Below are positions 33,044 through 34,773 of a stretch of 64,000 nucleotides of DNA, piece after piece (positions within the stretch are counted from its first letter, which is position 1; every line of letters begins with the position of its first letter). The stretch comes from Octopus sinensis. Taxonomy: Eukaryota. The stretch covers positions 17,236,001 to 17,300,000 of the forward strand of contig NC_043021.1 in assembly GCF_006345805.1 (NCBI RefSeq), written 5' to 3'. Position numbers: made by a program.

Positions 33044-33090
<47 letters not shown>

Positions 33091-33881
33091 CTTCTATCTA
33101 TAAATGTTCTAAAGTCTACTCAGCCTTGTTTTTTTTATATCTTATTATAAAAAAAAATTTATATATATATTTACCACATGAACTACAATGAAAAAAATAT
33201 GAGAAAGATATGGTATATAATTTTATTTTGTGCACGGTTTCCTTGAGACATGTAATTTTATTTTAAGGGTTCCACAAGGGTAAAATGCTTGAGAAACCTT
33301 GCTCTGCCTGCTCTATTCCACCAATCTCTGTTCTTGTCAATCCTATTCCACTGTTGTTGTCAATAATCTTCATCCTGTTCTGTTGCTCGACTGCTTTTCT
33401 AAGGAATTGTTATTTTTCTCTTTAGATCATGGCTATTCATGATGAAGAACCAGATACCAAAATACATGCTCATGCTCGACATAATATGGAAACACCGTAC
33501 AGCGACAATGAAATACATATGCTGGACAACATAAAAGCCACGGTTTCTACTGCTCCAAGTATGTTTGGACATCTTCTTTCTCATTTGGTTCCTCCTCTTT
33601 TTTTTGTTTTTTTTTTTCTAAATTTCATTTGGTTGGGTTTCTTGGGAGAGACATCATCATCATCATCATCATTCGTTTAATGTCCGTTTTCCATGCTAGC
33701 ATGGGTCGGACAATTTTGACTGAGGGCTGGCAACCAGATGGCTGCACCAGGCTCCAGTCTTGATCTGGCAGAGTTTCTACAGCTGGATGCCCTTCCTAAT
33801 GCCAACCACTCCGAGAGTGTAATGGGTGGCTGTGTATATTGAAATCATACAGCTTACATTTATAGCTGGGTGTGTAGATAA

Positions 33882-33949
<68 letters not shown>

Positions 33950-34734
33950 CTTCTATCTATAAATGTTCTAAAGTCTACTTACTCAGCCTTTTTTTATATC
34001 TTATTATAAAAAAAAATTATATATATATTTACCACATGAACTACAATGAAAAAAATATGAGAAAGATATGGTATATAATTTTTTTTGTGCACGGTTTCCT
34101 TGAGACATGTAATTTTATTTTAAGGGTTCCACAAGGGTAAAATGCTTGAGAAACCTTGCTCTGCCTGCTCTATTCCACCAATCTCTGTTCTTGTCAATCC
34201 TATTCCACTGTTGTTGTCAATAATCTTCATCCTGTTCTGTTGCTCGACTGCTTTTCTAAGGAATTGTTATTTTTCTCTTTAGATCATGGCTATTCATGAT
34301 GAAGAACCAGATACCAAAATACATGCTCATGCTCGACATAATATGGAAACACCGTACAGCGACAATGAAATACATATGCTGGACAACATAAAAGCCACGG
34401 TTTCTACTGCTCCAAGTATGTTTGGACATCTTCTTTCTCATTTGGTTCCTCCTCTTTTTTTTGTTTTTTTTTTTCTAAATTTCATTTGGTTGGGTTTCTG
34501 GGAGAGACATCATCATCATCATCATCATTCGTTTAATGTCCGTTTTCCATGCTAGCATGGGTCGGACAATTTTGACTGAGGCTGGCAACCAGATGGCTGC
34601 ACCAGGCTCCAGTCTTGATCTGGCAGAGTTTCTACAGCTGGATGCCCTTCCTAATGCCAACCACTCCGAGAGTGTAATGGGTGGCTGTGTATATTGAAAT
34701 CACAGCTTACATTTATAGCTGGGTGTGTAGATAA

Positions 34735-34773
<39 letters not shown>

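What the first reader, a model, noticed from the sequence alone, without database searches (positions are those of the whole stretch)
33048..34771. Tandemly duplicated, frame-incompatible juxtamembrane exon: potential membrane-bound vs truncated/secreted calsyntenin switch
Seen: an ~857-bp unit containing the 133-nt exon just before the TM exon occurs twice, with identical exon sequence and intact splice sites, and (TA)n tracts at all three junctions. 133 is not a multiple of 3, so using either copy gives full-length protein, while using both reads ...STAP-N-H-G-Y-S-stop, ending before the TM helix. Known: calsyntenin ectodomains are normally released by proteolytic shedding, and tandem exon duplication is the usual origin of mutually exclusive exons. 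Inference: this could be a newborn mutually exclusive exon pair, a splicing route to a soluble ectodomain, an NMD-coupled dosage switch, or a null allele. Caveat: the copies differ mainly by small indels in low-complexity runs, which is what a false duplication in a long-read assembly looks like.
Basis: partly seen in the sequence, partly recalled or inferred. Interest (0 to 1): 0.7.

Follow-up and report, generated by a model that had tools for sequence, protein, structure and literature searches.

The report
Doubled calsyntenin exon, probably assembly error
An octopus calsyntenin gene shows its last exon before the membrane anchor twice in a row, but the two copies differ only by the small length errors typical of long-read assemblies, so the doubling is more likely an assembly mistake than a new splicing switch.

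Summary
Between three (TA)n tracts (33048-33081, 33896-33940, 34747-34771) lie two units of 814 and 806 nt. Each carries the same 133-nt exon (33426-33558, 34283-34415) with the same AG/GT sites. The gene is Octopus calsyntenin-1: every exon residue in the window matches the O. sinensis protein. All 3 of 3 public Octopus models use the exon once.

The units show 0 substitutions and 8 small indels; 7 of the 8 are deletions in copy 2. Older repeats in the same window diverge by 140 mismatches to 25 gap openings. The differences therefore look like consensus errors concentrated in one copy, not divergence.

Best reading (0.6): a false exon gain, i.e. an under-collapsed tandem duplication in a long-read assembly. 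Main rival (0.3): a real, very young, possibly heterozygous (TA)n-mediated duplication. With identical splice sites and a 724-nt interval, it would by default include both copies, stop at 34297-34299 and act as a hypomorph. A regulated switch is possible but unsupported (about 0.06).

No reads, RNA-seq or other octopus genome could be consulted, so copy number remains unproven.

The parts
33048..33081 (.). Left (TA)17 tract, followed by (CA)4; left boundary of the duplication (arm L)
   Evidence: TRF, 17 copies, 100%; sequence
33082..33895 (+). Unit copy 1 (814 nt): 344 nt of intron, the exon, then 337 nt of intron including a SINE-like element at about 33655-33835
33426..33558 (+). Juxtamembrane exon, copy 1 (133 nt, phase 0 in, 1 base over)
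   Evidence: Identical to copy 2; its 44 aa are 100% identical to Octopus calsyntenin-1 proteins
33896..33940 (.). Middle (TA)23 tract with one phase break; with its (TG)n and (CA)n flanks it forms a near-palindrome at 33875-33959 (arm M)
   Evidence: inverted pair I16; predicted hairpin -45.3 kcal/mol
33941..34746 (+). Unit copy 2 (806 nt); relative to copy 1 it has 7 deletions and 1 insertion and no substitution
34283..34415 (+). Juxtamembrane exon, copy 2 (133 nt)
34297..34299 (+). TGA that ends the frame if copy 2 is spliced after copy 1 (a second TGA follows directly)
   Evidence: translation; position read
34747..34771 (.). Right (TA)12.5 tract preceded by (TG)6; right boundary (arm R)
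   Evidence: 44 nt, 91% complementary to arm L (I2)
31527..31672 (+). Upstream calsyntenin exon (...ADKVRDY...KPVKIK), donor after 31672, ends in phase 0
   Evidence: Pfam CLSTN_C 28.4 bits against a cut-off of 27
39499..39677 (+). Transmembrane exon (FGMAAIIVICVGFLLFMIILGVI, then ...MEWDNSAL...)
   Evidence: Pfam CLSTN_C 72.5 bits
41188..41367 (+). Last coding exon (acidic stretch, ...[10 protein letters not shown], stop)
   Evidence: 59 of 59 identical to P0002; ORF end
10131..31672 (+). The twelve upstream calsyntenin-1 exons in the window (P0002 residues 34-838; cadherin and laminin-G-like parts)
   Evidence: tblastn; Pfam per exon

Best explanation
The genome most likely holds one copy of this exon. 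The second unit is a false exon gain: an under-collapsed ('homotype') tandem duplication created when an error-prone long-read assembly was laid out or gap-filled across a unit that has (TA)n tracts at both ends. Reads carrying one unit were then placed on one copy, which was polished, while the other copy kept draft-level deletion errors. If so, there is no splicing switch. The gene is an ordinary calsyntenin-1 whose 133-nt juxtamembrane exon is used once, as in all public Octopus models.

Shown: the anatomy, the indel-only and one-sided differences, and single use of the exon in the annotated proteins.
Inferred: that the second copy is absent from the animal's DNA.
For: 1. The two units have 0 substitutions in about 800 aligned bases but 8 indel events.
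2. Older SINE copies in the same window diverge by 140 mismatches to 25 gap openings, summed over the five longest hits, so about 15% of events are indels. Four of the eight indels lie outside microsatellites or long runs: A lost between T runs, TT>T, GGG>GG, AT lost. With no substitution, the chance is about 0.15^4 = 5e-4 if these were mutations.
3. Long homopolymers, where natural slippage should strike first, agree between the copies (A9, A7, T8-G-T11). Short runs differ, as in long-read consensus error.
4. 7 of 8 indels are deletions in copy 2 (two-sided binomial p = 0.07). Errors sit in one copy, which is expected if only one copy is supported by reads. At the one indel that can be polarised, 4 of 5 other SINE copies agree with copy 1.
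5. The 15 exons of the gene in the window read through without a frameshift against proteins of two species. The unit pair carries about 1 discrepancy per 100 nt.
6. All 3 of 3 proteins found with the exon peptide carry the exon once, followed by the TM exon.
7. False exon gains and homotype duplications from long-read errors are a documented class (PMC9516828, passages read). O. sinensis was assembled from PacBio reads and O. vulgaris from ONT reads (PMC10700109, passages read).
Against: - There is no N gap between or beside the copies. [quoted passage not shown]
- All three boundaries lie exactly in (TA)n tracts and keep the (TG)n(TA)n(CA)n order. A real homology-mediated duplication would leave the same pattern.
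- A real duplication of identical copies would also escape short-read polishing because reads multi-map, so residual indels could remain.
- The 7:1 asymmetry is only p = 0.07.
- I do not know which assembly the window comes from or how it was polished. The O. sinensis genome paper is not held.
- No reads were available.
Confidence: 0.6

Rival explanations
1. A real, very young tandem duplication, possibly heterozygous or polymorphic. It would have arisen by unequal exchange or replication slippage between the two (TA)n tracts that flanked a single unit, and it would have no evolved function. Both copies have identical splice sites and at least 199 nt of identical intron upstream and 83 nt downstream, and they lie 724 nt apart. 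The default outcome is therefore inclusion of both copies, a stop at 34297-34299 and either decay of the mRNA or a TM-less protein ending ...STAP-NHGYS. That makes it a hypomorphic or null allele.
For: - The breakpoints lie in direct (TA)n repeats, with the flanking (TG)n and (CA)n order preserved.
- There is no assembly gap.
- The 724-nt interval is within the gene's intron range of 481-5083 nt, so nothing prevents splicing copy 1 to copy 2.
- The stop lies 116 nt before the end of copy 2, with two exon junctions downstream.
- Identical true copies would resist short-read polishing, which could explain leftover indels.
Against: - The errors are one-sided, 7 of 8 being deletions in copy 2. Two real copies should be polished equally well or equally badly.
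- It would disrupt a conserved single-copy neuronal gene.
- All 3 of 3 annotated Octopus proteins show single use of the exon.
- The exon-junction rule for decay is a vertebrate rule, recalled from general knowledge and untested in cephalopods.
Confidence: 0.3
2. A real duplication that already works as a switch. Exactly one copy is used for full-length membrane protein. Use of both copies, or of neither, shifts the frame and gives either a decayed mRNA (a dosage control) or a soluble ectodomain made without a protease. The choice could be steered by the three mutually complementary tracts L, M and R, which came ready-made with the duplication, as in the Ivanov-Pervouchine model.
For: - 133 is not a multiple of 3, so decay of the double form could enforce one-of-two use. 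This mechanism is listed in PMC6071210 (introduction).
- The unit ends are inverted repeats: 44 nt, 91% complementary.
- Predicted RNA duplexes are L:M -59.4, M:R -54.4 and L:R -54.9 kcal/mol. This resembles the duplicated-arm scenario of PMC6071210 (discussion).
- A soluble calsyntenin ectodomain is biologically active in C. elegans, as cited in PMC3414480 (discussion).
Against: - The copies encode the same peptide, so alternation adds no protein diversity.
- The predicted minimum-energy fold of 33030-34795 pairs L with R (45 bp) and folds M on itself (32 bp). That puts both exons in one loop rather than one at a time.
- (UA)n tracts are common in these introns, so pairing is not specific.
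- No conservation can exist in a duplication with no substitutions.
- No truncated isoform is among the 3 proteins found.
- This reading also inherits all the doubt about whether the duplication is real.
Confidence: 0.06
3. A heterotype false duplication: the two alleles of a heterozygous individual laid down in tandem, because (TA)n length differences between haplotypes confused the assembly graph.
For: The TA and TG tract lengths differ between the copies. Heterotype duplications are the commoner class in Ko et al..
Against: There is no single-base difference in about 800 nt, and the indels lie at non-repeat sites, which is unlike allelic variation. Such duplicates usually sit at contig ends or gaps, and none is present here.
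Confidence: 0.04

Closest known systems
False exon gain / homotype false duplication in genome assemblies (Ko et al. 2022, Genome Biol 23:205, PMC9516828)
   Same: A coding exon appears twice within one gene. The copies are near-identical with excess sequence errors. The source is a long-read assembly of a heterozygous, repeat-rich genome.
   Different: There is no assembly gap between the copies. The duplication is short (0.86 kb) and strictly tandem, with microsatellite junctions. Read depth, the defining test, could not be run.
Tandem exon duplications that gave mutually exclusive exons (Dscam clusters, 14-3-3zeta, Mhc, MRP1, srp; reviewed in PMC6071210)
   Same: Adjacent exons have equal length and phase. 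Flanking intron was duplicated with the exon. Complementary intronic arms were multiplied by the duplication. The length is not a multiple of three, so double inclusion is out of frame.
   Different: The copies are identical, so there are no alternative protein variants. There is no conservation and no transcript evidence. The predicted fold does not isolate one exon. The inter-exon interval is long enough for both to be spliced.
Calsyntenin/alcadein ectodomain shedding (Alcadein alpha; C. elegans CASY-1)
   Same: The hypothetical double-inclusion product would be the whole ectodomain without the TM helix and kinesin-binding tail, close to the shed form.
   Different: The known route is proteolysis of the full-length protein (PMC3414480), not splicing. 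Nothing here shows that a spliced soluble form is made.

Membership tests
Calsyntenin (alcadein) gene | Calsyntenin C-terminal region (Pfam CLSTN_C, PF19699) | tested here: met
   Scanned exon by exon. Exons 28043-28195 (34.7 bits), 31529-31672 (28.4) and 39501-39677 (72.5) exceed the cut-off of 27. The duplicated exon falls between profile positions 243 and 297 and has no hit of its own.
Calsyntenin (alcadein) gene | Cadherin repeats and a laminin-G-like domain in the ectodomain | tested here: inconclusive
   Single exons score below the cut-offs: Cadherin 22.8 against 28.8, Laminin_G_3 16.6 against 27.6. The full O. sinensis protein P0002, identical to the window's exons, carries precomputed PF00028 and PF13385. 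The joined model was not scanned.
Calsyntenin (alcadein) gene | Single TM helix followed by an acidic tail with two W-D kinesin-light-chain motifs | tested here: met
   A hydrophobic run of 23 residues lies in exon 39499-39677. MEWDNSAL and [10 protein letters not shown] are read. That these motifs bind kinesin light chain is recalled, and PMC3414480 states the KLC binding.
Mutually exclusive exon pair | Adjacent homologous exons of the same length and phase | tested here: met
   Both are 133 nt, identical, and have the same AG/GT sites. This holds in the assembly only.
Mutually exclusive exon pair | Transcripts contain exactly one of the two | not testable with these tools
   No RNA-seq was available. 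The 3 of 3 annotated proteins with one copy cannot tell which copy was used, or whether the genome has two.
Mutually exclusive exon pair | A mechanism that forbids joint inclusion: too-short intron, U2/U12 mix, competing RNA structures, or decay of the out-of-frame double form | tested here: inconclusive
   Short intron: not met, 724 nt. Splice-site type mix: not met, the sites are identical. Frame: met, 133 = 3n+1. Competing structures: strong duplexes are possible, but the minimum-energy fold loops out both exons together.
Mutually exclusive exon pair | The alternatives encode different peptides | tested here: not met
   The exon copies are letter-identical.
False duplication (criteria of Ko et al. 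2022) | Half or very low read depth over the copies | not testable with these tools
   No reads were available.
False duplication (criteria of Ko et al. 2022) | [quoted passage not shown] | tested here: not met
   There is no N anywhere in the window. A depth gap could not be tested.
False duplication (criteria of Ko et al. 2022) | Excess of erroneous sequence in the duplicated stretch; no heterozygous variants (homotype) | tested here: met
   This is a proxy only: 0 substitutions, 8 indels and 7 of 8 deletions in copy 2, against no frameshift in 15 exons. K-mer support could not be measured.

The most novel reading that the evidence does not exclude
The duplication is real and is a mutually exclusive exon pair caught at birth. 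Two identical, frame-incompatible juxtamembrane exons were duplicated together with self-complementary (TA)n(CA)n/(TG)n(TA)n arms. Competing long-range stems plus decay of the out-of-frame forms would then give one-of-two use from the first generation. A regulated leak into a protease-independent soluble calsyntenin ectodomain, in a cephalopod nervous system, would also be possible.
Probability: 0.06. Interest if true: 0.6.

Novelty: not a real feature. Interest (0 to 1): 0.2.

Why it matters
If it is an artefact, the value is practical. This locus is a clean example of a false exon gain without a flanking gap. It can be recognised from the sequence alone by zero substitutions, indels at non-repeat sites and errors confined to one copy. 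It also warns against reading isoform switches from this assembly.

If it is real, it would be a rare zero-age snapshot of how tandem exon duplication first affects splicing. It sits in a gene whose shed ectodomain is known to be active in learning in C. elegans. It would also let the duplicated-arm model of competing RNA structures be tested on an unevolved case.

Tried and rejected
- Copy number in other data. Other assemblies, individuals and reads therefore stayed unchecked.
- The listing of cluster members on P0002 and P0003 was meant to show the second member of the O. sinensis cluster, which could be an isoform. It was not sent because the database is switched off, so this stays open.
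- The O. sinensis genome paper (Li et al. 2020) is not held, so its polishing method is unknown to me.
- A search for 'calsyntenin' plus 'octopus' found 2 papers holding both terms, 1 listed, and that one is on C. elegans cadherins. Within that library I found nothing in print on this locus.
- Looking for other near-identical duplications as a sign of a systematic artefact: none of at least 120 nt in the window apart from this one.
- Polarising the indels with other repeat copies: only one indel lies in a repeat family. The upstream half of the unit has no other copy in the window.
- The idea that the unit is a mobile element with terminal inverted repeats was rejected. It contains a conserved coding exon, and the inverted ends are mostly microsatellite.
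- The Pfam SNRNP27 hit at 3269-3565 was rejected as low-complexity T/H repeats.
- tRNA and Rfam scans of the window found nothing.
- The full six-frame ORF list was not informative.
- The joined spliced model was not searched or scanned. Exons were handled one at a time.
- No supplementary files were opened.

Full report
**What is there**

- Direct-repeat families have start-to-start spacings of 855-859 nt. One block of 300 nt is 100% identical: 33222-33521 = 34079-34378.
- Tandem Repeats Finder places (TA)n tracts at 33048-33081 (17 units, perfect), 33896-33940 (23 units, one phase break) and 34747-34771 (12.5 units, perfect).
- Between these tracts lie units of 814 nt (33082-33895) and 806 nt (33941-34746).
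- A global alignment of the units has 0 mismatches and 16 gap columns, grouped in 8 events.
- The longest identical block is 416 nt from 33226 and contains the exon.
- The window has no N.
- Apart from microsatellite and minisatellite arrays, it has no other near-identical repeat of at least 120 nt.

**The gene**

The 44 residues encoded by the exon were searched alone, allowing longer proteins. The search found 3 proteins among 3 candidates, all at 100% identity:
- calsyntenin-1 of Octopus sinensis (P0002, 999 aa);
- two models from O. bimaculoides (P0001, 729 aa; P0003, 847 aa).

tblastn of these proteins against the window maps P0002 residues 34-999 to 15 exons on the + strand between 10131 and 41364. 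Every exon residue is identical to P0002, and mismatches appear only where the alignments run into introns. The O. bimaculoides models are less similar, for example 87% against 97% across 28677-28991. The window is therefore O. sinensis or a very close relative such as O. vulgaris. I cannot tell which assembly it comes from.

Scanned exon by exon, three exons exceed the Pfam cut-off for the calsyntenin C-terminal family. The duplicated exon lies between two of those hits and has no hit of its own. It encodes the poorly conserved juxtamembrane stretch. I searched and scanned the exons one at a time and left the joined spliced model out.

**The reading frames**

- The upstream exon ends in phase 0 at 31672 (…KPVKIK, donor GTAACC).
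- The 133-nt exon reads IMAIHDEE…TVSTAP plus one base.
- The next exon starts at 39499 and supplies N-FGMAAIIVICVGFLLFMIILGVI…MEWDNSAL….
- The last exon is 41188-41367.
- Using either copy alone gives the annotated protein.
- Using both gives …STAP-N-H-G-Y-S and two stops. The first stop is at 34297-34299, which is 116 nt before the end of copy 2.
- Using neither also shifts the frame and stops inside the TM exon (…ILAWRPSLSFVLVSCSS-stop, from the ORF).
- Both copies share the acceptor …TTTTTCTCTTTAG and the donor GTATGT.
- They also share at least 199 nt of identical intron upstream and 83 nt downstream.
- They are 724 nt apart, within the gene's intron range of 481-5083 nt.

Nothing in the sequence would let the spliceosome prefer one copy or forbid joining them.

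**Are the differences mutations or errors?**

Four observations bear on this.
- There are no substitutions. The five longest SINE-like hits elsewhere in the window differ from the unit's copy by 140 mismatches and 25 gap openings in all. In natural divergence here, about 15% of events are indels.
- Four of the eight indels lie outside microsatellites and long runs: loss of an A between two T runs, TT>T, GGG>GG and loss of AT. Four indels without a single substitution has a chance of about 5e-4 under that spectrum.
- The long homopolymers, where natural slippage is fastest, agree between the copies (A9, A7, T8-G-T11).
- Seven of the eight events are deletions in copy 2 relative to copy 1 (two-sided binomial p = 0.07). 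At the single indel inside a repeat family, 4 of 5 other family members agree with copy 1.

By contrast, the gene's exons in the window show no frameshift against proteins from two species. Part of that comparison is circular if P0002 was predicted from this very assembly.

I conclude that the differences are consensus errors, mostly in copy 2, and that the true sequences of the 'copies' are the same.

**What that implies**

Identical true sequences fit two stories.

*(a) A false duplication.* The reads carry one unit, aligners put them on one copy, and the other copy is never polished.
- Ko et al. describe this class: 'homotype' duplications from accumulated long-read errors, and 'false exon gain' as an annotation consequence (PMC9516828, passages read).
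- The published O. sinensis and O. vulgaris assemblies are PacBio- and ONT-based (PMC10700109, passages read).

*(b) A real duplication so young that nothing has changed, with residual errors because short reads multi-map.*

Evidence favouring (a):
- The one-sidedness of the errors. Two real copies should be polished equally.
- All public models use the exon once.
- The cost a frame-breaking duplication would have in a conserved gene.

Evidence favouring (b):
- There is no assembly gap, which Ko et al. found between most false duplicates.
- The breakpoints lie exactly in (TA)n tracts with the (TG)n(TA)n(CA)n order preserved. Unequal exchange or slippage between the tracts would produce this.

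I put (a) at about 0.6, (b) without function at about 0.3, (b) with a regulated function at about 0.06, and a two-allele (heterotype) artefact at about 0.04. The last is disfavoured by the absence of any single-base difference.

**If it were real, how would it work?**

The default is joint inclusion of both copies, a premature stop, and either mRNA decay or a TM-less ectodomain. The decay rule based on downstream exon junctions is recalled vertebrate knowledge and is untested in cephalopods.

Mutually exclusive use needs a mechanism (PMC6071210, introduction):
- A too-short intron is excluded; the interval is 724 nt.
- Mixed spliceosome types are excluded; the sites are identical.
- Decay of the out-of-frame double form is possible.
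- Competing RNA structures are conceivable.

On the last point, the unit ends are inverted repeats of 44 nt at 91% complementarity.
- Predicted duplexes are L:M -59.4, M:R -54.4 and L:R -54.9 kcal/mol, and the M hairpin is -45.3 kcal/mol.
- This resembles the duplicated-arm model of Ivanov and Pervouchine (discussion read).
- However, the minimum-energy fold of 33030-34795 pairs L with R (45 pairs) and folds M on itself (32 pairs). That encloses both exons in one loop rather than one at a time.
- (UA)n tracts are also frequent in the neighbouring introns.
- Because the two exons encode the same peptide, alternation would add no protein diversity.

A soluble ectodomain would be biologically plausible. 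Alcadein alpha is constitutively shed, and the soluble CASY-1 ectodomain rescues learning in C. elegans, as stated in PMC3414480 (passages read). Nothing here shows that a spliced soluble form is made.

**Comparison with known kinds, and novelty**

As an artefact, this is a member of the known 'false exon gain' class. It is atypical only in lacking a gap. As a real event, it would be a new member of the known class of tandem exon duplications, not a new kind.

A literature search for calsyntenin plus octopus found 2 papers holding both terms, 1 listed, and that one is unrelated to this locus.

**What stayed unchecked**

- Read depth and spanning reads.
- RNA-seq junctions.
- Other octopus assemblies.
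- The second member of the P0002 cluster (one search was not sent because the database is off).
- The O. sinensis assembly methods (paper not held).
- No supplementary files were opened.

**Verdict**

The doubled exon is most likely not a real feature of the genome, and interest is low (0.2). A modest chance remains of a real zero-age exon duplication that would be worth a PCR.

Noticed in passing
window 33041-33105 (L), 33871-33965 (M), 34723-34785 (R): The exon-bearing unit is bracketed by inverted (TA)n(CA)n...TATCTA / TAGATA...(TG)n(TA)n arms: 44 nt, 91% complementary, predicted RNA duplex about -55 kcal/mol. In a contiguous stand-in for the one-copy state (33030-33925), a 50-bp stem loops out the exon. 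This could favour exon skipping or back-splicing, so an exon-end to exon-start junction in RNA-seq would not by itself prove a DNA duplication.
   Followed up: partly
window 33655-33835 and 34511-34690; other copies near 27633-27803, 19577-19742, 54875-55041, 10616-10793, 19777-19945: A SINE-like element that begins with (CAT)n and contains ...CCATGCTAGCATGGGT... lies in the intron just after the exon and was duplicated with it. At least five other copies, 74-86% identical, lie in the window on both strands. No tRNA or Rfam family matches the window.
   Followed up: partly
window 33896-33940: The middle (TA)n tract has a one-base phase break (...TATAT-TATAT...). It could mark the join of two tracts or be one more single-base deletion error. 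I could not tell which.
   Followed up: no
window 39626-40135 and 17388-17846: Long minisatellites start right after exon donors. A 16-nt array of about 30 units begins about 30 nt after the TM-exon donor (39677). A 27-nt array of about 17 units begins just after the donor at 17411. The last intron (39678-41187) and 29084-30145 are almost entirely TA/CA-type low-complexity sequence.
   Followed up: no
window 41368-64000 and 1-10130: 113 of the 126 stop-to-stop ORFs of at least 80 aa with non-trivial composition were scanned; the 13 overlapping calsyntenin exons were left out. None had a credible Pfam hit. The SNRNP27 hit at 3269-3565 sits exactly at the cut-off and is a T/H low-complexity artefact. 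No second gene or intact transposon protein was recognised. The exon for P0002 residues 1-33 was not found in the window.
   Followed up: partly
proteins P0001 and P0003 (O. bimaculoides models) against window 20671-22513: The two O. bimaculoides calsyntenin models lack the exon matching 21524-21706. P0003 instead carries a long S/L/F/P low-complexity insert. These look like annotation errors in that species' models, not biology.
   Followed up: no
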